Source: Candidatus Poribacteria bacterium
GTDB lineage: Bacteria; Poribacteria; WGA-4E; WGA-3G
Direction of reading: 5' to 3'
Length of the DNA: 64,000 nucleotides
Assembly: GCA_963665235.2 (NCBI GenBank)
Contig: CAXXLX010000001.1
Location: forward strand, 3,488,001-3,552,000
The notes beneath the pieces are model-generated. The model worked only from the letters and a program-made list of their open reading frames with translations. It was not told the DNA's origin and did not search any database. Shown here in pieces: positions 1 to 57,175 of the stretch (position 1 is the first letter of the stretch; every line of letters starts with the position of its first letter). Both the position numbers and the translations under genes were made by a program.

Positions 1-1
1 C

Positions 2-115
2 ATTGAGTGGGCTGAACGGATGAAAGACGCACTGCCTAAGACATCTATCAATATTCACATAACATGGGAAGACGAAAATATCAGGACTTTTCGCGTCCAC
101 CGGAAACAGACGTGA
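2..115 (+). CDS. tsaE: 3' end of tRNA threonylcarbamoyladenosine biosynthesis ATPase TsaE (partial)
   Basis: Manual translation of frame 2 gives IEWAERMKDALPKTSINIHITWEDENIRTF..., the IEW-x-ER...LP C-terminal signature of TsaE/YjeE; stop at 113-115. Confidence 0.75.
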   Translation: MEWAERMKDALPKTSINIHITWEDENIRTFRVHRKQT

Positions 116-155
116 AAAGGCAGCGATTTGTGTACAAGCAATTTTTGGTGACGTT

Positions 156-1187
156 ATGAACGACGGAGAAAAAGGCAAATTGGTGAGCCCTCCGCAGGGC
201 ATGCAGGTAGGTCAAGGGGCTGCGAATCAGGCATCTCAACTGTTTGGAGAGGGTATCGGCAACACCCGTGAATGGGTAGAAATTCACCGCACCGCGGATG
301 ACTGGGAGGTGAAACTTGTTCAGGCTACGTTGGGCGCGCAGCAGATTAGGTGTCGTCCGGTGCAGCTAAAAAAGGAACGTCAAACCGCACTTTTAGTGGC
401 ACCTGAACATGAGGTCGCTGCTCTGGAATTGGTGAGCCGCATCGACGTTGCTATTGCGGATAATGAGATGACGGCACAATTTGAGGAGGAGGCGGAAGCA
501 CTTAAACAACGCGACCTCGCTGCTGTTGACGCAGCTGATAACCAACAAGCTGTGGATACAGATTCAGGAGAGATGATGCTTGTGGAACAGGAGGATATTG
601 GTAGCGTTGTCTATGTTGCCGGACAGGGATACGAACTTCGCGTCGGGCCGGAACCCTACATCACCGTGGCGGAGAGCGACTGGGAGGAATTCACAGATTT
701 TAGCGCACAACGGCAGGAGTTTTTTATCCTGCTCCGACATGAATACCCGACGCTTTTCGAGTGGCTCCAGCAGGAAAAACTTGTCGCAAAATTCATCCGG
801 CTCATTGAGATGACGTATCAGGATGGGGCTCCTACACCCCCCCGCTCCTACAGTGACGTGTCCGATGCTGAAGAATTGCCGGCAATCCCTTACAACCTGT
901 TTGCACAATTGAGTTTGGCTATTGCGGTTGTTTCGTTTATCGTTGTGCTTTTTCAGGTGTCGTGGTATGTAAATCTTGTGTTGGCTGGGGGTGCTGTGGT
1001 CTTGGCGATTGTTGCCAAATATCAAATCGATGCAAGTGAGGAGGAATCTACCGGGATTCCGATGGCACTGTGCGCGATTGTGTTTGCATGTTTGGTGGTT
1101 GTGTTTGCGTGGTGGCTTGCGCAGCGTCCCCCGCCTGTGGAGGAGCCCCAGAAACCGCCTGTAGGCGAGATGGTTAGGAATCGGTGA
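156..1187 (+). CDS. hypothetical membrane protein (three C-terminal TM helices)
   Basis: 343-aa ORF with an acidic soluble N-terminal part and hydrophobic segments at the C-terminus. Confidence 0.75.
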   Translation: MNDGEKGKLVSPPQGMQVGQGAANQASQLFGEGIGNTREWVEIHRTADDWEVKLVQATLGAQQIRCRPVQLKKERQTALLVAPEHEVAALELVSRIDVAIADNEMTAQFEEEAEALKQRDLAAVDAADNQQAVDTDSGEMMLVEQEDIGSVVYVAGQGYELRVGPEPYITVAESDWEEFTDFSAQRQEFFILLRHEYPTLFEWLQQEKLVAKFIRLIEMTYQDGAPTPPRSYSDVSDAEELPAIPYNLFAQLSLAIAVVSFIVVLFQVSWYVNLVLAGGAVVLAIVAKYQIDASEEESTGIPMALCAIVFACLVVVFAWWLAQRPPPVEEPQKPPVGEMVRNR

Positions 1188-1205
1188 AGGAGCACAACGA
1201 GAAAT

Positions 1206-1410
1206 GTCAATAACCCCCCGCTAAAGCATGGGGGCTTGTGCGAACCGCCTGCCAAGCGGTCACTCCACAAGTTAAACCGTTGACTACAGTAATATATCGG
1301 GTATTCTTAGCGTGGCAGCTAACAAGATGTTTCAGATGCTCCCCAAGTCTGAATCCCCTCTGAATACCTGATCTGGATGGGGAAACATATACCCGAAAGG
1401 AGAAAACAAA
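1206..1410 (+). ncRNA. omegaRNA scaffold (guide read from the left flank, about 1186-1205)
   Basis: ~200-nt structured non-coding region starting GTCAA, with a complementary TTGAC downstream, directly upstream of isrB and conserved in copy 2. Confidence 0.8.
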
Positions 1411-1413
1411 CTT

Positions 1414-2472
1414 ATGTTTGTGCCAGTCAAAACGAAAGAGGGTGAACGATTGAGGTTTCCGATGCATGCTGCACGTGCAAGGAAACTTGTCAAACGCGGT
1501 GAAGCAACGCCTTATTGGAACAACGGTGTCTATTGTGTCCGTCTCAACAAAGAACCGAGTGACCGTGAGAAACAAGACATCGTAGTCGGTGTGGATCCTG
1601 GCTCTAAGAAAGAGGGTTTCACCGTAAAATCTAAGCGTCACACGTATCTGAACGTGCAGGTTTCCGATGCACATAGCAAAGTCGGCAAGAAGGTTGAGAA
1701 AAGACGTGAGTTGAGGCGTAGCCGCAGAGCGCGTAAATGTCCAAATCGGAAGAACCGCAAGAATAAAGGTGCTAACAAAAAGAAGATTCCCGCAGGCACG
1801 CGTGCCCGTTGGGATTGGAAACTGCGGATATTAGATTGGTTGTCTAACCTCTATCCTGTTACACACGTCTGTGTTGAGGATATTAAGGCGCGGACAAAAC
1901 AGTATCAAAAGCGGTGGAATCAGGCCTTTAGTCCTTTGGAAGTCGGAAAGCATTGGTTCTATTCAGAGGTAGAAAAGCGATGGGAACTCCTAACATTACA
2001 AGGGTTTGAAACCAAAGAGATACGCGAGCGTCTTGGTCTCAACAAGTCGTCAAAGAAGTTAGCTGAAACCTTTGAGGCACATTGCGTTGATAGCTGGTGC
2101 TTGGCATATCACACCATTGGCGGTTTAGAGATACCCGACAATACCGATATATTCTGTATCTCACCAATACCGATACGCAGGCGACAACTCCACAGACAAA
2201 ATCCGCAGAAAGGTGGCAATCGGCCGCGATATGGTGGCACCTTATTAGGCGATGGACTTGTTAAAAGCACATTGATAAAGCACGACAAATATGGACTCAC
2301 ACGTCCGAGGTCCCACCGAGGACATCCTATTGCGGGTGTTAATGCGAAAGGCCTATTCTCTGTCTATTCAAAAGATGGACAACGGTTAACAACGGGTGCG
2401 AAACGCACAGATTTTCAAGTGCTAACACGCTTGAACTTTCAATATAGGAGCGGTGTTTCCTCCCCCGCATAA
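1414..2472 (+). CDS. isrB: IsrB RNA-guided nickase (RRXRR/PLMP N-terminus, split RuvC, no HNH)
   Basis: 352 aa; RuvC-I VGVDPG, Arg-rich bridge helix RRELRRSRRARK, RuvC-II VEDI, RuvC-III HCVDS; no HNH or CxxC motifs. Confidence 0.85.
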   Translation: MFVPVKTKEGERLRFPMHAARARKLVKRGEATPYWNNGVYCVRLNKEPSDREKQDIVVGVDPGSKKEGFTVKSKRHTYLNVQVSDAHSKVGKKVEKRRELRRSRRARKCPNRKNRKNKGANKKKIPAGTRARWDWKLRILDWLSNLYPVTHVCVEDIKARTKQYQKRWNQAFSPLEVGKHWFYSEVEKRWELLTLQGFETKEIRERLGLNKSSKKLAETFEAHCVDSWCLAYHTIGGLEIPDNTDIFCISPIPIRRRQLHRQNPQKGGNRPRYGGTLLGDGLVKSTLIKHDKYGLTRPRSHRGHPIAGVNAKGLFSVYSKDGQRLTTGAKRTDFQVLTRLNFQYRSGVSSPA

Positions 2473-2598
2473 ATGCTGGGGGTCTCCACACCGAATATTT
2501 TGATGATAGAGGGAAGGATGGATTTGGCGTGTGTTGTCTGAATCGCGGATTACACAGAGGACACGAAGAACGCGGAAAAAGAGGGGTTTGGGTAAAAT

Positions 2599-2675
2599 CT
2601 ATAAACATATCGCCCCGCTGGGGCTATTTTGTGTTTTGTTTGCGTTTTCTATAAACATTCCGCCCCGCTGGGGCT
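2599..2675. repeat. two copies of dispersed palindromic repeat CTATAAACATwyCGCCCCGCTGGGGCT
   Basis: Copies at 2599 and 2649; others at 23811, 57359 and 57409, and a divergent inverted copy near 53454. Confidence 0.85.
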
Positions 2676-2710
2676 GCGCTTTGGCACATCCTACGGTTAT
2701 TTTCCTAAGC

Positions 2711-50398: not shown

Positions 50399-50671
50399 CT
50401 GGCTATGCACCCGGGGTTGACAAGCCTTTCCAAGCGTTGCCCATGTCGTTGGCTCCGGCCAGGCTACCTTGCGTCACACTATAAAACTTATCTGCCGCTG
50501 CTTCTTTCCAGACCTGACGGGGTTCAACAAGCTATAGTTGCTCAAGACCCAGCCTTCAACGCTACGTGCATGGGACAGTCCTTACAAAGACAGGCCGCAT
50601 ACCGGGAATTCAGTCCTGCTATAGCGGATTGCAGGTGCAGGGCACCGCTACCTCCCCACCTAGCATAACCA
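50399..50671 (-). ncRNA. ffs: signal recognition particle RNA, large (Alu-domain) type
   Basis: Minus strand GGGGAGGTAGCGGTGCCCTG..CCTGCAATCCGCT Alu domain; CCCCGTCAGGTCTGGAAAGAAGCAGCGG helix 8; 5'/3' end pairing; upstream of dnaX. Confidence 0.93.
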
Positions 50672-50699
50672 AGCTGTTAAATGTATTTATCGGATGTTA

Positions 50700-51135
50700 T
50701 ACCATTTTTATTAATTATTCTATCATTACCGGTTGTTAGAAATGAAACAAAGAACGGAAGACCCAAACTGGAAGTTTATGCTACAATAAAGCACACAAAC
50801 TGGAAGTTTATGCTACAATAAAGCACACAAACTGGAAGTTTATGCTACAATAAAGCACACAAACTGGAAGTTTATGCTACAATAAAGCACACAAACTGGA
50901 AGTTTATGCTACAATAAAGCACACAAACTGGAAGTTTATGCTACAATAAAGCACACAAACTGGAAGTTTATGCTACAATAAAGCACACAAACTGGAAGTT
51001 TATGCTACAATAAAGCACACAAACTGGAAGTTTATGCTACAATAAAGCACACAAACTGGAAGTTTATGCTACAATAAAGCACACAAACTAAAAGTTTATG
51101 CTACAATAAAGAGACATTTTCAATTAGAAATGGTA
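50700..51135. mobile_element. MITE family A (inverted) with 11 tandem 32-nt REP units
   Basis: TACCATTT TIRs; TSD TTA. Confidence 0.92.
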
Positions 51136-51186
51136 TTAGATAGTTCCGACAATAGGCGGTACGGCTGGCGTACCGCAACAAAAAAA

Positions 51187-51278
51187 TGGCGGAGAGAGTG
51201 GGATTCGAACCCACGGTACTGCTTAACAGCACACATGATTTCCAGTCATGCCAGTTCAACCAACTCCTGCATCTCTCC
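51187..51278 (-). tRNA. tRNA-Ser(GGA)
   Basis: Cloverleaf with long variable arm; anticodon loop CT-GGA-AA; CCA encoded. Confidence 0.95.
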
Positions 51279-51341
51279 GATACGCTCCGGTAGGGAGCAC
51301 ATACTGCGCATCACCCTACAAATATCTCTAAGAAAATGGAA

Positions 51342-51414
51342 TGGAGCAGACGGGAGTTGAACCCGTGACCTCATCCGTGCGAGGGATGCGCTCTCCCAAC
51401 TGAGCTACTGCCCC
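51342..51414 (-). tRNA. tRNA-Ala(CGC)
   Basis: GGGGCAG acceptor with G3:U70; loop CT-CGC-AC. Confidence 0.95.
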
Positions 51415-51448
51415 AAAAACTTCGAAAACGGACGCTAGAAAAATTCAA

Positions 51449-51533
51449 CGGAGAGAGTGGGATTCGAACCCACGGTGACTTGCGCCACAACAGTTTTCGA
51501 GACTGTCCAGTTCAACCACTCCTGCATCTCTCC
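51449..51533 (-). tRNA. tRNA-Ser(CGA)
   Basis: Loop CT-CGA-AA; long variable arm. Confidence 0.95.
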
Positions 51534-51567
51534 CTAGTGTTATAGAAGACTTTGGATTTTTTAGGTA

Positions 51568-52017
51568 TTAACGTCGTTCCATAAAAAAAGATTTCAATAA
51601 CGTGCTGCTCTCTTCTGCTAAAATACCGCTTACCAATTCGACTTGATGGTTCAATCGTTCATCTTGAAGGATGTTGTAGAGGCTGCCTGCGGCTCCCGAT
51701 TTCGGATCGGATGTAGCATAAACAACCCGCGGAATACGGGCAAGAACTATCGCCCCTGCACACATTGGACACGGCTCCAAGGTGACATATAGGGTCGTAT
51801 CGCTCAAACGCCAGTCGCCAATTTTTTGGGAAGCAGTCTGTATCGCCAGTATTTCGGCGTGTGCAATAGGATTGCCGGAATGCTCCCGCAGATTATGGGC
51901 AGCAGCGAGTTGCATATCTGCTTTCACAATGACTGCACCGACAGGCACTTCACCCTTCTTCCCTGCTTGTTGTGCTAATTCGAGGGCTTGCCCCATCCAA
52001 AAGGAATCGATGTCCAA
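51568..52017 (-). CDS. tadA: tRNA adenosine(34) deaminase
   Basis: EVPVGAV, HAE, TLEPCPMC, LNH. Confidence 0.97.
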   Translation of the reverse strand: MDIDSFWMGQALELAQQAGKKGEVPVGAVIVKADMQLAAAHNLREHSGNPIAHAEILAIQTASQKIGDWRLSDTTLYVTLEPCPMCAGAIVLARIPRVVYATSDPKSGAAGSLYNILQDERLNHQVELVSGILAEESSTLLKSFFMERR

Positions 52018-52082
52018 TTTTTCTGCCTTTGTCCATACCCATGCAAAATGTGCATGGGTGCCAACCCGGGTGTAATTGAGAA

Positions 52083-52156
52083 AGCGCCTGAGAGGATTCG
52101 AACCCCCGCCCTTCTGATCCGTAGTCAGATGCTCTAATCCACTGAGCTACAGGCGC
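52083..52156 (-). tRNA. tRNA-Arg(ACG)
   Basis: Loop CT-ACG-GA; canonical cloverleaf. Confidence 0.95.
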
Positions 52157-52168
52157 GCCTTCAAAAAA

Positions 52169-52253
52169 CGGAGAGGGTGGGATTCGAACCCACGATGACT
52201 TACGCCATAACTGCTTAGCAGGCAGTCCAGTTCAACCACTCCTGCACCTCTCC
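52169..52253 (-). tRNA. tRNA-Ser(GCT)
   Basis: Loop CT-GCT-AA; long variable arm. Confidence 0.95.
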
Positions 52254-52270
52254 CTATTTAATTTAAACGA

Positions 52271-52358
52271 TGGCGGTGGGAGTAGGATTCGAACCCACGG
52301 TGACTTGCGCCACAACGGTTTTCAAGACCGCCGCTTTCGTCCACTCAGCCATCCCACC
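52271..52358 (-). tRNA. tRNA-Ser(TGA)
   Basis: Loop CT-TGA-AA; CCA encoded. Confidence 0.95.
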
Positions 52359-53970: not shown

Positions 53971-54182
53971 TACCATTTCTAATTGGAAATGTCTCTTTAT
54001 TGTAGCATAAACTTCCAGTTTGTGCACTTTCTTGTAGCATAAACTTCCAGTTTGGGCACTTTATTGTAGCATAAACTTCCAGTTTGGGCACTTTATTGTA
54101 GCATAAACTTCCAGTTTGTGTCTTCCGTTCTCCGTTTGATTTCTAACAACCGGTAATGATAGAATAATTAATAAAAATGGTA
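53971..54182. mobile_element. MITE family A with 4 REP units
   Basis: TACCATTT TIRs; TSD TAA. Confidence 0.92.
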
Positions 54183-54270
54183 TAATATAGAGAGCGGGCT
54201 GTGTTCGCGCCTGGCGGTTCAAATTAGGTAAAATTAGATGGAAGAAAACGGAACGAACTCCACAAACGAA

Positions 54271-54475
54271 GTCAATAACCCCCCGCTAAAGCATGGGGGC
54301 TTGTGCGAACCGCCTGCCAAGCGGTCACTCCACAAGTTAAACCGTTGACTACAGTAATATATCGGGTATTCTTAGCGTGGCAGCTAACAAGATGTTTCAG
54401 ATGCTCCCCAAGTCTGAATCCCCTCTGAATACCTGATCTGGATGGGGAAACATATACCCGAAAGGAGAAAACAAA
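54271..54475 (+). ncRNA. omegaRNA scaffold (guide about 54251-54270)
   Basis: Matches the scaffold of copy 1. Confidence 0.8.
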
Positions 54476-54478
54476 CTT

Positions 54479-55531
54479 ATGTTTGTGCCAGTCAAAACGA
54501 AAGAGGGTGAACGATTGATGCCGATGCATGCTGCACGTGCAAGGAAACTTGTCAAACGCGGTGAAGCAACGCCTTATTGGAACAACGGTGTCTATTGTGT
54601 CCGTCTCAACAAAGAACCGAGTGACCGTGAGAAACAAGACATCGTAGTCGGTGTGGATCCTGGCTCTAAGAAAGAGGGTTTCACCGTAAAATCTAAGCGT
54701 CACACGTATCTGAACGTGCAAGCCGATGCACATAGCAAAGTCGGCAAGAAGGTTGAGAAAAGACGTGAGTTGAGGCGTAGCCGCAGAGCGCGTAAATGTC
54801 CAAATCGGAAGAACCGCAAGAATAAAGGTGCTAACAAAAAGAAGATTCCCGCAGGCACGCGTGCCCGTTGGGATTGGAAACTGCGGATATTAGATTGGTT
54901 GTCTAACCTCTATCCTGTTACACACGTCTGTGTTGAGGATATTAAGGCGCGGACAAAACAGTATCAAAAGCGGTGGAATCAGGCCTTTAGTCCTTTGGAA
55001 GTGGGAAAGCATTGGTTCTATTCAGAGGTAGAAAAGCGATGGGAACTCCTAACATTACAAGGGTTTGAAACCAAAGAGATACGCGAGCGGCTTGGTCTCA
55101 ACAAGTCGTCAAAGAAGTTAGCTGAAACCTTTGAGGCACATTGCGTTGATAGCTGGTGCTTGGCCTATCACACCATTGGCGGTTTAGAGATACCCGACAA
55201 TACCGATATATTCTGTATCTCACCAATACCGATACGCAGGCGACAACTCCACAGACAAAATCCGCAGAAAGGTGGCAATCGGCCGCGATATGGTGGCACC
55301 TTATTAGGCGATGGACTTGTTAAAAGCACATTGATAAAGCACGACAAATATGGACTCACACGTCCGAGGTCCCACCGAGGACATCCTATTGCGGGTGTTA
55401 ATGCGAAAGGCCTATTCTCTGTCTATTCAAAAGATGGACAACGGTTAACAACGGGTGCGAAACGCACAGATTTTCAAGTGCTAACACGCTTGAACTTTCA
55501 ATATAGGAGCGGTGTTTCCTCCCCCGCATAA
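54479..55531 (+). CDS. isrB: IsrB RNA-guided nickase
   Basis: 350 aa; RLMP (PLMP-like) motif; RuvC D/E/H/D residues intact; no HNH. Confidence 0.88.
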   Translation: MFVPVKTKEGERLMPMHAARARKLVKRGEATPYWNNGVYCVRLNKEPSDREKQDIVVGVDPGSKKEGFTVKSKRHTYLNVQADAHSKVGKKVEKRRELRRSRRARKCPNRKNRKNKGANKKKIPAGTRARWDWKLRILDWLSNLYPVTHVCVEDIKARTKQYQKRWNQAFSPLEVGKHWFYSEVEKRWELLTLQGFETKEIRERLGLNKSSKKLAETFEAHCVDSWCLAYHTIGGLEIPDNTDIFCISPIPIRRRQLHRQNPQKGGNRPRYGGTLLGDGLVKSTLIKHDKYGLTRPRSHRGHPIAGVNAKGLFSVYSKDGQRLTTGAKRTDFQVLTRLNFQYRSGVSSPA

Positions 55532-55561
55532 ATGCTGGGGGTCTCCACACCGAATATTTTG

Positions 55562-57175
55562 ATGAATCAAAGTGTGACCCGGGCAGCTGGGGTTGTAAGT
55601 CTTGCAGTGATGGGGTCACGGGTGTTAGGGCTTGCCCGAGAGGTCGCCATCCTGTATTATTTTCAGACGAAGTTCGGGGCAGCCGCCTACCATCTCGCGT
55701 TTCGCATCCCGAATTTCCTGCGCGACCTGTTCGGTGAGGGTATCTTGAGCAAGGCGTTTATTACGACATTCCTTGCGGCGGAAGCAGAAGAGGGGGAGGC
55801 GGCGGCATGGAATCTTGCAAACCGCATCTTTAATCTGATAGCCCTTATCCTAGTAGGTGTGGTGGGGCTCGGTATCGTTTTCGCACCCGCTATCGTTGAT
55901 GTCCTGGCCCGTGAGGATTTCGACGAGCAATTAAATAACGTTGAACATTACGGATTTGACAGTAAAGTTGAATTGACAATCTATTTGACGCAACTGATGT
56001 TTCCGTACCTATTCCTCGTTTCGCTTGCAGCGATAGCGATGGGATTATTGAACAGTAAAGGTAAATTCGGTATCCCCGCGTGTGCTTCCTCCTTCTTTAA
56101 TCTGTGCTCGCTTGTCGTTGGTATCAGCGGTTATTACGTCTGTCGATGGCTCGGAATTCATCCGACAACAGGAATGGCAGTAGGGGTCATTGTGGGAGGT
56201 ATTGCTCAATTTGGAATTCAGGTGCCCTCCATGTACCGAGTCGGTTTTCGGTATCGTCCACTCTTGAGCCTACGGCATCCGAGGGTACGCCAAATGCTGC
56301 AATTGCTTGGGCCTTCGGTGTTAGGTGTGGCAGCGGTGCAGGTGAATCAACTGACAAATACGTGGTTTATTACCTCAGGCGATGAATGGTTACCGTGGAT
56401 TAACAGTGCCTATCGTATAATGCACCTGCCGTTGGGTATATTTGGCGTGGCGATTTCGACGGTGGCACTGCCGCAACTTGTGAAATTCGCTACTGTGGGT
56501 GATACGGACAACTTTCGCGCCGCTTTCTCTTACGCCCTCCGTTTAATGTTAACTGTAATCCTTCCCGCATCAATTGGATTGATGGTATTGGCAGAACCGA
56601 TTTGTCGGTTGCTTTATGAGCACGGGGCATTCACGGAGGGGGATACAATTGCAGCCGCTGGTGCTCTGTTCGTTTACGCCTTCGGGTTGTGCGGTTTCGC
56701 GGCTCTCAAGCTTGTGACGGATGGATTTTATGCATATAAAGATATCCGTGCGCCAGTTATCGTCAGCATTTGTGCGGTAGTCCTCAACATCGGTTTGAAC
56801 TATCTGTTTATCTATCGCGGGCTCCTGTTCGAACATTGGGCAATTGTGCTTTCAACTGTTTTTACCGTGACGCTGAACTTTTTAGTTTTGCTCCTGCTGC
56901 TCCGACGTAAGGTTGGACGGTTGAATTTGCGACCGCTCCTTCCGATGGCATTCAAGGTTTTGATGGCTTCGATTGTGATGGGATTTATCTGCTGGATAAC
57001 AAATGGAGTCGTTGAAAAGGATTGGCTCGGCACAGAAGGTATTCTACCACGCGCCCTAGGTGTATTCACCCCCATCGGATTCGGTCTGCTGACATTGGCG
57101 GGGATGTATAAGTTCTTGAGAATCACTGAGTTTGACGATATTTTGGAAATGTTTAAGCGGCGATTTCGGAATTGA
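55562..57175 (+). CDS. murJ: lipid II flippase MurJ (MviN); alternative start 55532 inside the element end
   Basis: SRVLGLARE, AFRIPNFLRDLFGEG, LPLGIFGVAISTVALP. Confidence 0.96.
   Translation: MNQSVTRAAGVVSLAVMGSRVLGLAREVAILYYFQTKFGAAAYHLAFRIPNFLRDLFGEGILSKAFITTFLAAEAEEGEAAAWNLANRIFNLIALILVGVVGLGIVFAPAIVDVLAREDFDEQLNNVEHYGFDSKVELTIYLTQLMFPYLFLVSLAAIAMGLLNSKGKFGIPACASSFFNLCSLVVGISGYYVCRWLGIHPTTGMAVGVIVGGIAQFGIQVPSMYRVGFRYRPLLSLRHPRVRQMLQLLGPSVLGVAAVQVNQLTNTWFITSGDEWLPWINSAYRIMHLPLGIFGVAISTVALPQLVKFATVGDTDNFRAAFSYALRLMLTVILPASIGLMVLAEPICRLLYEHGAFTEGDTIAAAGALFVYAFGLCGFAALKLVTDGFYAYKDIRAPVIVSICAVVLNIGLNYLFIYRGLLFEHWAIVLSTVFTVTLNFLVLLLLLRRKVGRLNLRPLLPMAFKVLMASIVMGFICWITNGVVEKDWLGTEGILPRALGVFTPIGFGLLTLAGMYKFLRITEFDDILEMFKRRFRN

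What the first reader, a model, noticed from the sequence alone, without database searches (positions are those of the whole stretch)
1186..2506. Two recently transposed IsrB OMEGA elements with different guides and a readable ATGA TAM
Seen: two 1.3-kb copies (1206-2502, 54271-55561) differ by a few synonymous SNPs and two +3 edits. Left flanks differ right up to GTCAA, and both right ends are followed by ATGA. Established: IscB/IsrB omegaRNAs take their 5' guide from the flank and need a 3' TAM, and NTGA/ATGA TAMs are known. Inference: the guides are ...GAAGGAGCACAACGAGAAAT and ...GAACGAACTCCACAAACGAA, each targeting its own empty site, and mobilisation depends on a trans TnpA.
Basis: partly seen in the sequence, partly recalled or inferred. 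Interest (0 to 1): 0.75.

Follow-up and report, generated by a model that had tools for sequence, protein, structure and literature searches.

The report
IsrB transposons parked on start codons
Two near-identical copies of a small RNA-guided-nickase (IsrB) transposon of an already described type sit in a sponge-symbiont (Poribacteria) genome, and this family is unusual in that many copies lie exactly in front of the ATG start codon of intact host genes.

Summary
Window 1206-2502 and 54271-55561 are two copies of one 1.3-kb element. The flanks differ right up to the first base, and both copies are followed by ATGA.

- The 350/352-aa protein is an IsrB. Its best sequence and fold match is DtIsrB 8dmb, it has Pfam RRXRR and it has no HNH domain.
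- The 208 nt upstream of the gene is a HEARO-like omegaRNA scaffold that starts at the element's first base and shows covariation.
- The element carries no transposase. Three resident IS605-like tnpA-tnpB elements have almost the same end hairpins.

This kind of element is already in print. ISC1 elements with very similar termini (5'-GTCA, GATGA-3') and an N|ATGA target verified on empty sites were described in 2016 (PMC4810608). I therefore class it as a new member of a known kind.

- The family has at least 27 complete copies here, and the 80 best of 299 related loci elsewhere are nearly all (79) in Poribacteria MAGs.
- In 11 of 27 copies the ATG of the ATGA target follows a Shine-Dalgarno motif and opens an ORF of 80 aa or more. 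Random ATGA sites do this 3.6% of the time.
- Copy B lies inside murJ after codon 11. Copy A has an altered PLMP motif.

No empty site and no RNA ends were obtained.

The parts
1186..1205 (+). Predicted guide of copy A: the 20 nt of host flank immediately 5' of the omegaRNA scaffold. It lies 18 nt after the stop codon of upstream ORF 156-1187.
   Evidence: The flanks of A and B diverge right up to 1205/54270. The scaffold starts at 1206. The 20-nt guide length is assumed from DtIsrB (PMC9581776) and was not measured.
1206..2502 (+). Copy A of the non-autonomous ISC1/IsrB element (1297 bp), made of omegaRNA scaffold, isrB and right-end hairpin.
   Evidence: The boundary before ATGA is set by analogy with the empty-site-verified ISC1-1_MA (PMC4810608) and by the variation of the preceding bases among families.
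1206..1413 (+). omegaRNA scaffold (HEARO-like). It contains the left-end subterminal hairpin (1214-1234) and a terminal hairpin holding the isrB Shine-Dalgarno.
   Evidence: HEARO RF02033 aligns to 1206-1409, model 1-211, 30.8 bits. 22 of 32 consensus pairs show compensatory changes in 33 sequences. The helix formed by the element's first 7 nt pairs at 6.06 of 7 positions, against 2.8 of 7 for flank letters.
1414..2472 (+). isrB of copy A (352 aa). The RuvC residues are intact. The PLMP motif reads LRFP instead of LMP, and there is a second one-residue insertion (QVSD instead of QAD).
2451..2502 (+). Right-end imperfect hairpin (outer arms 2451-2456/2488-2493, inner arms 2462-2466/2478-2482) plus a 9-nt tail. 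On the opposite strand this is the transposon left end (LE). The isrB stop codon TAA (2470-2472) lies in the loop.
   Evidence: Read from the sequence. It is conserved in 31 of 33 right ends and aligns with the LE of the resident IS605-like elements.
2503..2506 (+). ATGA, the target site / TAM of copy A. Here it opens only a 12-codon ORF.
54238..54270 (+). The first 11 codons of the original murJ reading frame, now cut off from the gene. The last 20 nt (54251-54270) are the predicted guide of copy B.
   Evidence: murJ in seven relatives starts 10-11 codons upstream of the homologous position.
54271..55561 (+). Copy B of the element (1291 bp): omegaRNA scaffold 54271-54478 and isrB 54479-55531 (350 aa, with the canonical LMP motif).
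55562..55565 (+). ATGA, the target site / TAM of copy B. Its ATG is an in-frame Met codon of murJ and now heads the 537-aa murJ ORF (55562-57175).
   Evidence: The MurJ profile TIGR01695 positions 2-505 align to residues 5-528 of this ORF. murJ is single-copy in the assembly.

Best explanation
**What it is.** Both loci are copies of one non-autonomous IS200/IS605-superfamily element of the ISC1 (IsrB) type in a Candidatus Poribacteria genome.

**Anatomy (shown).** On the isrB strand the element reads as follows. The first base (GT...) is the first base of a ~208-nt HEARO-like omegaRNA scaffold. Then comes isrB (350 aa), which has a PLMP domain, an Arg-rich bridge helix, a continuous RuvC domain, no HNH domain and a C-terminal TAM-interacting domain. 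Last is a subterminal hairpin. The element sits immediately 5' of the tetranucleotide ATGA, with no target duplication.

**How it most likely works (inferred from the published family).**
1. A Y1 transposase made elsewhere excises and inserts the single-stranded element. The most likely source is the three resident IS605-like tnpA-tnpB elements, whose end hairpins are nearly the same.
2. Transcription entering from the host flank produces an omegaRNA whose 5' ~20 nt are the flank.
3. IsrB loaded with this RNA recognises the scar-less donor joint (flank + ATGA) and nicks it. Repair from a sister copy then restores the element.

**History.** Copies A and B are the product of a recent transposition. 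They differ by 3 isolated synonymous substitutions and two complex in-frame changes.

**Position in the host genome (shown as a statistic, cause inferred).** The guide has to be transcribed from outside the element, and the target contains ATG. Copies therefore accumulate exactly at translation starts. There the host promoter supplies the guide-bearing transcript, no coding sequence is lost, and the ATG of the target remains the host gene's start codon. The host gene is then probably translated by re-initiation after the isrB stop codon, which lies 24-30 nt upstream of the terminal ATGA.
For: **Identity of the protein**
- Searches agree on IsrB. D60, E153, H221 and D224 are invariant in 34 sequences.

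**RNA**
-.
- HEARO gives 13 sub-threshold full-length hits in the genome. All that coincide with the ends mapped start at the element's first base.
- 7 of 20 Poribacteria loci give hits that start 206-212 nt before the ORF.

**Ends and target**
- 31 of 33 right ends read TTGATGA. Among other Poribacteria families the bases before ATGA vary (TTG, GTG, TAG, GAG).
- The published ISC1-1_MA has very similar termini (5'-GTCA, CGATGA-3') and an empty-site-verified N|ATGA target.

**Trans transposase**
- There are 13 Y1_Tnp matches.
- Three tnpA (137 aa, PF01797) + tnpB (PF01385/PF07282) elements have a right-end (RE) hairpin that shares 24 of 25 nt with the IsrB element's left-end hairpin (reverse complement). 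Their left end (LE) is preceded by TTATCA(A), against TCATCAA for the IsrB element.
- This parallels one TnpA serving TTTAT and TTCAT elements in Geobacillus.

**Start-site association**
- Own genome: 16 of 27 complete copies have an ORF of 80 aa or more starting at the target ATG, 12 of 27 have a Shine-Dalgarno core 3-11 nt before the junction, and 11 of 27 have both.
- The matching fractions for 8000 random ATGA sites are 21%, 8.8% and 3.55%. The binomial p for 'both' is 9e-10.
- Other Poribacteria genomes: 16 of 51 loci have both.
- Profiles of LeuC, ArgJ, an N-terminal double-TM domain, MTHFS and MurJ begin at residues 1-10 of these ORFs. That is 5 of the 6 ORFs that had any NCBIfam hit, out of 10 scanned.
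- leuC, argJ, murJ and MTHFS are single-copy.

**Other**
- No terminator-like site lies at the right end.
- A promoter-like site lies about 105 nt upstream of copy B.
Against: - No empty site was found for either copy. The nearest genomes held are other genera at 70-77% identity, and the contigs laid showed no joint across the element. The exact boundary therefore rests on analogy and on family comparison.
- The HEARO score is far below Rfam's gathering score (30.8 against 83).
- No RNA 5' or 3' ends are available. RNA-library contigs cover the element but not the flanks, and DNA carry-over cannot be excluded.
- Copy A's IsrB carries a change in the otherwise nearly invariant LMP motif and may be inactive.
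- 11 of 27 copies are at neither a long ORF nor a Shine-Dalgarno motif, so start sites are a preference and not a rule.
- No Shine-Dalgarno motif is visible in the element's last 12 nt, so how the host genes are translated is unproven.
- The isrB stop and the target ATG are not in a fixed frame: across families the distance from the stop codon to the terminal ATGA is 24-30 nt (the large GTGATGA family measures 24 to GTGA).
Confidence: 0.88

Rival explanations
1. The elements are immobile relics. The family expanded in the past, copies A and B are simply the least diverged pair, and IsrB/omegaRNA no longer act.
For: No empty site or excision joint was seen. Copy A has a disrupted PLMP motif. 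Several family members are truncated or frameshifted, for example ORFs of 181, 265 and 73 aa.
Against: A and B are 99% identical, with different flanks. Their 3 isolated substitutions are all synonymous. At least 17 copies keep ORFs of 342-397 aa, and the RuvC residues are invariant. Intact tnpA genes with matching ends are present.
Confidence: 0.1
2. The pile-up at start codons is an active target choice by the transposase. For example it might recognise an extended motif such as ATGAAA, or prefer single-stranded DNA at open promoters or initiation regions. On this view it is not a result of retention or selection.
For: The base after ATGA is A in about half of the 31 right ends, and many downstream ORFs start MK. 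IS200/IS605 transposases read only the sequence on the target side.
Against: Roughly half of the sites do not have A after ATGA, and the following bases vary widely. Copy B sits at an internal Met codon and copy A at no gene start. A simple count argues for retention: among ATGA sites that are transcribed in sense orientation and are not inside coding sequence, start codons should be the largest class. That count is an inference and was not run.
Confidence: 0.2
3. The two copies arose by segmental duplication or gene conversion between older insertions, not by transposition.
For: Gene conversion among about 30 related copies is plausible. The patchy distribution of a 24-nt insert among sub-families hints at exchange between copies.
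Against: Similarity stops exactly at the element ends on both sides, with no duplicated flank. No third copy closer than 86% exists to serve as a donor. Conversion would still need two earlier insertions of the same sub-family.
Confidence: 0.05

Closest known systems
ISC1-1_MA and other ISC1 (IscB1 = IsrB) transposons of Kapitonov, Makarova and Koonin 2016 (PMC4810608; passages read)
   Same: It is a non-autonomous ~1.3-kb element encoding only the HNH-less Cas9 homologue. The published termini are 5'-GTCA ... CGATGA-3'; here they are GTCAA ... TTGATGA. It has subterminal imperfect hairpins and inserts 5' of ATGA without target duplication. The termini are shared with IS605-type elements whose tnpB lies on the opposite strand.
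   Different: The host is Poribacteria rather than Cyanobacteria. Copy number is far higher (at least 27 complete copies plus mini-derivatives, against 4). The paper does not mention start codons (0 occurrences of 'start codon' in its text). Its supplementary figures were not seen.
Desulfovirgula thermocuniculi IsrB with its omegaRNA (PDB 8DMB; PMC9581776, passages)
   Same: The Foldseek alignment spans both proteins (346 columns): about 30% identity in the Foldseek alignment, E 9e-36 by sequence and E 5.8e-22 by fold. The size is about 350 aa, with PLMP, RuvC I-III and a bridge helix. The omegaRNA lies upstream with the Shine-Dalgarno in its terminal hairpin. The TAM is NTGA, and DtIsrB is active on ATGA.
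   Different: The scaffold before the ORF is 208 nt here, against 262 nt in DtIsrB. The TAM-reading residues (R323, Q326 in DtIsrB) could not be aligned by sequence: the alignment ends at residue 323, and one search gave nothing. No biochemistry was done here.
Geobacillus stearothermophilus ISGst IscB/TnpB network (Meers et al., preprint 10.1101/2023.03.14.532601; passages)
   Same: One resident TnpA serves several non-autonomous families. The IscB TAM TTCAT equals ATGAA on the guide strand, and the TnpB TAM is TTTAT, which parallels TCAT against TTAT here. IscB elements are oriented like the upstream gene. The model proposed is donor-joint cleavage and homing.
   Different: That nuclease is IscB (with HNH, making double-strand cuts), whereas IsrB only nicks. 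The insertion-at-start-codon pattern is not described in the passages read.
Rfam HEARO RNA (RF02033)
   Same: The full-length alignment starts at the element's first base. The RNA lies directly upstream of the nuclease gene.
   Different: The score is 25-40 bits in all Poribacteria copies tested, against a gathering score of 83. The Rfam model was built on IscB-associated RNAs.

Membership tests
IsrB (HNH-less IscB, OMEGA nickase) | Continuous RuvC domain with catalytic acidic residues in motifs I, II and III | tested here: met
   D60, E153, H221 and D224 (copy B numbering) are invariant in 34 aligned family members. These motifs align with the DtIsrB motifs. Their catalytic role is inferred from the family and was not assayed.
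IsrB (HNH-less IscB, OMEGA nickase) | No HNH nuclease domain between RuvC II and III; size about 350 aa | tested here: met
   Pfam at E<=1 gives only RRXRR. NCBIfam IscB matches residues 5-163 only, at 80 bits against a cut-off of 175. IscB structures match only the N-terminal ~120 residues. Length is 350/352 aa.
IsrB (HNH-less IscB, OMEGA nickase) | N-terminal PLMP domain with its motif | tested here: met
   Copy B and all 17 other aligned own-genome copies that cover the motif (one further row, a 265-aa truncated ORF, lacks it) read LMP. L13 and P15 are invariant and M14 is at least 90% conserved in 34 sequences. Copy A is the exception (LRFP), so the feature is met for the family and for copy B but altered in copy A.
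IsrB (HNH-less IscB, OMEGA nickase) | Overall fold like solved IsrB, including the C-terminal TAM-interacting domain | tested here: met
   The AlphaFold2 model has mean pLDDT 61 and pTM 0.50. The Foldseek top hit is 8dmb_P, E 5.8e-22, TM 0.55/0.58, 346 columns. Model quality is moderate, so residue-level TAM readers were not assigned.
IsrB (HNH-less IscB, OMEGA nickase) | omegaRNA encoded upstream, with its scaffold starting at the transposon end and its guide from the flank | tested here: inconclusive
   The structured, covarying RNA starting at the first base is shown. The RNA's real 5' end and guide length are not. The RNA-library contigs cannot show ends.
IsrB (HNH-less IscB, OMEGA nickase) | Guide- and TAM-dependent nicking of the non-target strand | not testable with these tools
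   This needs biochemistry.
ISC1 / IS200-IS605 superfamily transposon | Subterminal imperfect hairpins at both ends, no terminal inverted repeats, no target-site duplication | tested here: met
   The hairpins are at 1214-1234 and 2451-2493. The flanks of 27 copies show no duplication.
ISC1 / IS200-IS605 superfamily transposon | Insertion next to a specific 4-5-nt target (here N|ATGA) | tested here: met
   31 of 33 right ends are followed by or end in ATGA. ATGA stays constant while the preceding bases vary among Poribacteria families. That ATGA lies outside the element is taken from the empty-site proof for ISC1-1_MA, since no empty site was found here.
ISC1 / IS200-IS605 superfamily transposon | Mobilisation by a Y1 (HUH) TnpA, here in trans | tested here: inconclusive
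   tnpA genes with matching end hairpins exist. Activity on these ends is not testable here.
Rfam HEARO RF02033 | Score at or above the curated gathering score (83 bits) | tested here: not met
   The score is 30.8 bits for both window copies. The best in the genome is 35 bits, and the best in 20 Poribacteria loci is 40.2 bits. It works like a HEARO/omegaRNA but is not a member by Rfam's threshold.

The most novel reading that the evidence does not exclude
This Poribacteria IsrB family has become specialised for translation start sites. The ATG of its ATGA target/TAM doubles as the host gene's start codon. The host promoter and 5' UTR supply the transcript and the guide. The element's conserved 3' end lets ribosomes re-initiate at that ATG after terminating at the isrB stop 24-30 nt upstream. 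Single-copy housekeeping genes (leuC, argJ, murJ) would therefore stay expressed, but coupled to the transposon's own expression. If so, host gene starts would serve as safe harbours for an RNA-guided transposon, and the transposon might impose a layer of control on them.
Probability: 0.3. Interest if true: 0.7.

Novelty: new member of a known kind. Interest (0 to 1): 0.45.

Why it matters
The element itself adds little. IsrB/ISC1 elements, their omegaRNA, the ATGA target and trans mobilisation are all in print.

Its value lies in three points:
- **A large natural collection.** The loci found come almost entirely from Poribacteria MAGs: 299 related loci, of which the best 80 were looked at and 79 are labelled Poribacteria. 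They offer natural IsrB/omegaRNA pairs with visible covariation, which is useful for comparative and engineering work.
- **A position effect.** About a third to two fifths of copies lie exactly between a ribosome-binding site and the start codon of intact, often essential, genes. This makes concrete and testable the published idea that IscB-type guides depend on outside transcription. It also raises a question I did not find addressed in the searches made: how are genes translated when a 1.3-kb transposon separates them from their ribosome-binding site?
- **Annotation.** Gene callers will tend to mis-set the starts of these host genes. The 11 orphaned codons of murJ are an example.

Tried and rejected
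1. **Empty sites in related genomes.** Two searches of 30 relatives returned only other genera at 64-77% identity. The intergenic sequence is not alignable. They did show that murJ starts further upstream.
2. **Empty sites or excision joints in public runs.** All four runs are kept as short contigs. None of the 15 joints listed spans 1205 to 2503, and 7 more joints were not shown. This is no evidence against polymorphism. Contigs of X5 and X6 stop at or leave the stretch at 1205, but their loose letters were not listed.
3. **Expression.** RNA-library run X7 has contigs on the element, with higher depth on the RNA part, and none on the flanks. Depth of contigs from a multi-copy family, with possible DNA carry-over, is not usable as evidence.
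4. **Support for copy A's odd 3-nt changes.** One X1 contig (1543-1818, no gaps) carries the second change. At the first site the only contig laid comes from another family member. The result is inconclusive.
5. **A donor for the shared 14-mer of copy A.** Two other genomic places share 13 nt but nothing more. They were rejected as chance.
6. **Trans targets.** No guide seed (12-16 nt) followed by NTGA occurs elsewhere in the genome, for any of the 30 left ends. A regulator-like reading therefore has no visible target.
7. **Replication-strand bias.** The GC skew of contig C1 is weak and element orientation shows no pattern. This was not pursued.
8. **TAM-reading residues.** A search with the C-terminal 80 aa found no IsrB alignment.
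9. **A read-through fusion of IsrB with the host protein.** This was rejected because the stop-to-ATG distance is not in a constant frame.
10. **Literature.**
   - The searches 'HEARO + ATGA', 'IsrB/omegaRNA/start codon', 'IS605 + ATGA + start codon' and 'Poribacteria/transposase/IS200/TnpB' found no description of start-codon insertion or of Poribacteria IsrB.
   - The 2009 HEARO paper and Altae-Tran 2021 are not held, so a statement there cannot be excluded.
Full report
**1. The observation**

In the pairwise alignment, similarity begins at 1206/54271 with GTCAA and ends at 2506/55565 with TTGATGA. Outside these points the sequences are unrelated. Inside them 11 columns differ:
- Three isolated substitutions (1944, 2031, 2106), all third-position and synonymous.
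- Two in-frame 3-nt length differences, each with one neighbouring substitution.

The non-coding left 208 nt and the last 34 nt are identical.

A search of the whole assembly found 67 matching pieces. The assembly has 5.3 Mb in 4 contigs, and the window is C1:3488001-3552000. The next best copy is 86% identical, so A and B are by far the youngest pair. A 2493-nt contig of a public run bridges window 1-1235 without a difference.

**2. What it encodes**

The only long ORF (352 aa in A, 350 aa in B) was checked in five ways:
- It matches Pfam RRXRR and nothing else at E<=1.
- By sequence it matches DtIsrB (8dmb) at E 9e-36 over residues 3-323. IscB structures match only the first ~120 residues.
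- The NCBIfam IscB model covers residues 5-163 only and stays below its cut-off.
- An AlphaFold2 model built on 34 family members is of moderate quality (pLDDT 61). Its best structural match is again 8dmb, at E 5.8e-22 over 346 columns, ahead of the IscBs.
- In the 34-sequence alignment the RuvC residues D60, E153, H221 and D224 never vary.

This is an IsrB: RuvC without HNH, about 350 aa, with a PLMP domain.

**3. The RNA**

Rfam's HEARO model is the RNA later recognised as the IscB omegaRNA (review PMC13565253; preprint). It aligns over its full length to 1206-1409, starting at the element's first base. The score is only 30.8 bits, against a gathering score of 83.

The same kind of sub-threshold full-length hit appears elsewhere:
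- At 13 places in the genome.
- In 7 of 20 Poribacteria loci, always 206-212 nt before the ORF.

Independent support comes from covariation:
- In an alignment of 33 diverged copies, RNAalifold found 32 pairs, of which 22 show compensatory changes.
- The first seven bases of the element pair with the seven bases before a conserved TACAG block at 6.06 of 7 positions on average. The seven flank bases just upstream pair at 2.8 of 7.
- The alternative arm pairs are GTCAA/TTGAC, TTCAG/CTGAA and GTAAAGA/TCTTTAC.

The structured RNA therefore begins at the transposon end, and a guide can only come from the flank. This is the architecture solved for DtIsrB (passages of PMC9581776). The last hairpin holds the isrB Shine-Dalgarno, also as in DtIsrB. 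Real RNA ends were not obtained.

**4. Ends, target and transposase**

*Ends.* Both ends carry imperfect hairpins (1214-1234; 2451-2493). Of 33 right ends in the genome, 31 read TTGATGA. In other Poribacteria families the three bases before ATGA differ (GTG, TAG, GAG, TTG) while ATGA stays.

[quoted passage not shown] They showed on empty orthologous loci that GT belongs to the element and ATGA is the target (N|ATGA). They also found that ISC elements share termini with IS605-type elements whose tnpB lies on the other strand.

*The same holds here.*
- The genome has 13 Y1_Tnp matches.
- Three copies of a tnpA (137 aa) + tnpB element (Pfam confirmed) have a right-end hairpin identical in 24 of 25 bases to the reverse complement of the IsrB element's left hairpin.
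- Their left end aligns with the IsrB element's right end. It is preceded by TTATCA(A), where the IsrB elements have TCATCAA.
- This mirrors the Geobacillus network, in which one TnpA serves TnpB elements with TAM TTTAT and IscB elements with TAM TTCAT, which reads ATGAA on the guide strand.
- DtIsrB's TAM is NTGA, and it cuts ATGA targets.

The thing is a member of a published kind.

**5.

(a) **The organism and the size of the family.**
- The organism is a Candidatus Poribacteria. Of the 80 best of 299 related loci, 79 lie in MAGs labelled Poribacteria and one in an 'uncultured bacterium' MAG.
- The genome holds at least 27 complete elements of several sub-families.
- It also holds ORF-less derivatives of 454-571 bp that keep the RNA part and the right end.

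(b) **The position of the copies is far from random.**

| Feature | Own genome, 27 complete copies | 8000 random ATGA sites |
|---|---|---|
| ORF of 80 aa or more starts at the ATG of the terminal ATGA | 16 of 27 | 21% |
| Shine-Dalgarno core 3-11 nt before the junction | 12 of 27 | 8.8% |
| Both | 11 of 27 | 3.55% |

- The binomial p for 'both' is 9e-10. Counting all right ends, 19 of 31 have such an ORF.
- In other Poribacteria genomes, 16 of the 51 loci with both ends recognisable have both features. 67 loci with an intact ORF were examined.
- The ORFs are real genes that start there. Ten were scanned and six had NCBIfam hits. In five of the six the profile begins at residue 1-10: LeuC 1-465 on profile 1-466, ArgJ, an N-terminal double-TM domain, MTHFS and MurJ. 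The sixth is a TPR protein.
- leuC, argJ, murJ and MTHFS have no second copy in the assembly.

(c) **Copy B is a special case.**
- In seven relatives murJ starts 10-11 codons further upstream.
- In this genome those 11 codons (54238-54270) are still there, in frame. The element follows them, and the ATG of the target is an internal Met codon that now heads a MurJ ORF with the complete profile.

(d) **Copy A sits at no gene start.**
- It lies 18 nt after the stop of the co-oriented ORF 156-1187.
- Its ATGA opens only 12 codons.

**6. Mechanism of the position effect (inference)**

The guide lies outside the element, so it has to be transcribed from a host promoter. Meers et al. noted that IscB elements are oriented like the upstream gene.

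Consider the ATGA sites that are transcribed in sense and do not interrupt coding sequence. The ATG-A of start codons should be the largest class among them. Copies there would be both harmless and able to make a working guide. They would therefore be restored after excision and would persist. This explains the pattern without any special targeting. An active preference of the transposase is the rival and can be told apart by a de novo insertion profile.

How the host genes are translated is open:
- No Shine-Dalgarno is visible in the last 12 nt of the element.
- No terminator-like site lies at the right end.
- The isrB stop codon lies 24-30 nt before the terminal ATGA in all families, which makes termination-reinitiation coupling the most economical guess.
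- The frame between the stop codon and the ATG is not constant, so a fusion by read-through is rejected.

**7. Oddities**

*Copy A's IsrB.* It differs from copy B and from the other aligned own-genome copies that cover these sites at two places. The nearly invariant LMP of the PLMP motif reads LRFP, and QAD reads QVSD. At the DNA level both changes produce the same 14-mer. No donor sequence was found. One public contig supports the second change, and the first could not be checked. This remains unexplained. PLMP-domain deletion abolishes DtIsrB activity, so copy A's protein may be impaired. Its RNA, identical to B's, could still be served by B's protein.

*A 24-nt insert.* It lies in frame in copies A and B and in at least seven other aligned copies, where it encodes PRSHRGHP. 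It lies in reverse orientation at another place of one copy, and at eight places outside the usual in-frame isrB site, including a short tandem array.

**8. What is missing**

- There is no empty site for either copy: relatives are too distant and contigs are uninformative.
- There are no RNA ends and no activity data.
- The start-site counts use ORFs and a simple Shine-Dalgarno rule, not curated gene calls.
- The random control comes from this genome only.
- The literature searches cover an open-access library. The original HEARO paper and Altae-Tran et al. 2021 could not be read, and the supplementary figures of PMC4810608 were not seen.

**9. Verdict**

This is a new member of a known kind (ISC1/IsrB with an N|ATGA target) in a new host phylum, with an unreported and testable preference for translation start sites. 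Interest is moderate.

Noticed in passing
window 1453-1466 and 1658-1671 (copy A) versus 54517-54527 and 54719-54729 (copy B): Copy A's two in-frame 3-nt differences from copy B both create the same 14-mer, AGGTTTCCGATGCA. This turns the conserved LMP of the PLMP motif into LRFP, and QAD into QVSD. Copy B and the other aligned own-genome copies that cover these sites have the copy B state. No donor sequence was found in the genome.
   Followed up: partly
window 2305-2328 and 55364-55387; also G000 C1:727689, 2373744, 3342105, 546732, 1653893, 893122, C2:317266 and, in reverse orientation, C1:2521645: A 24-nt insert containing CCGAGGTCCCACCGAGGACATCC lies in frame in isrB of some sub-families (PRSHRGHP) and is absent from others. 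It occurs in reverse orientation at another site of one isrB copy (GCPRWDLG). It is also found at eight places outside the usual in-frame isrB site, once as a short tandem array. It looks like a tiny mobile or recombining motif.
   Followed up: partly
G000 C1:337433-337905, 504553-505006, 532866-533436, 681345-680873, 1154421-1154882, 1888563-1888070: These are ORF-less derivatives of 454-571 bp that keep the omegaRNA-like left part and the right end. Some right ends are 98% identical to those of copies A and B. Four of the six also sit on an ATG that opens an ORF of 205-307 aa. They are candidate stand-alone omegaRNAs served in trans.
   Followed up: partly
window 2598-2680: Just downstream of copy A are two copies of a short repeat with a GC hairpin (GCCCCGCTGGGGC). 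Bins 2506-2839 have by far the highest contig depth in all three DNA runs laid, so this is a very abundant small repeat in these metagenomes.
   Followed up: no
window 54050-54125: Two and a half tandem copies of a ~37-nt unit (GTTTGGGCACTTTATTGTAGCATAAACTTCCA) lie upstream of the murJ promoter region and copy B.
   Followed up: no
window 50403-52358, minus strand: A large-type bacterial SRP RNA (177.8 bits) lies next to a cluster of six tRNA genes.
   Followed up: no
window 54271-54381: The severed 11 N-terminal codons of murJ remain in frame with the first 25 codons of the omegaRNA scaffold, which gives a 36-codon ORF ending at a TGA. Ribosomes starting at the old murJ start would therefore run into the guide-scaffold junction.
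   Followed up: no
G000 C1:545730, 538926, 733800 and C2:795353: A second IS605-like family (tnpA 137 aa + tnpB 416-422 aa) has different end hairpins. A further tnpA-only gene lies at C1:1178437. The genome therefore carries several Y1-transposase systems.
   Followed up: no
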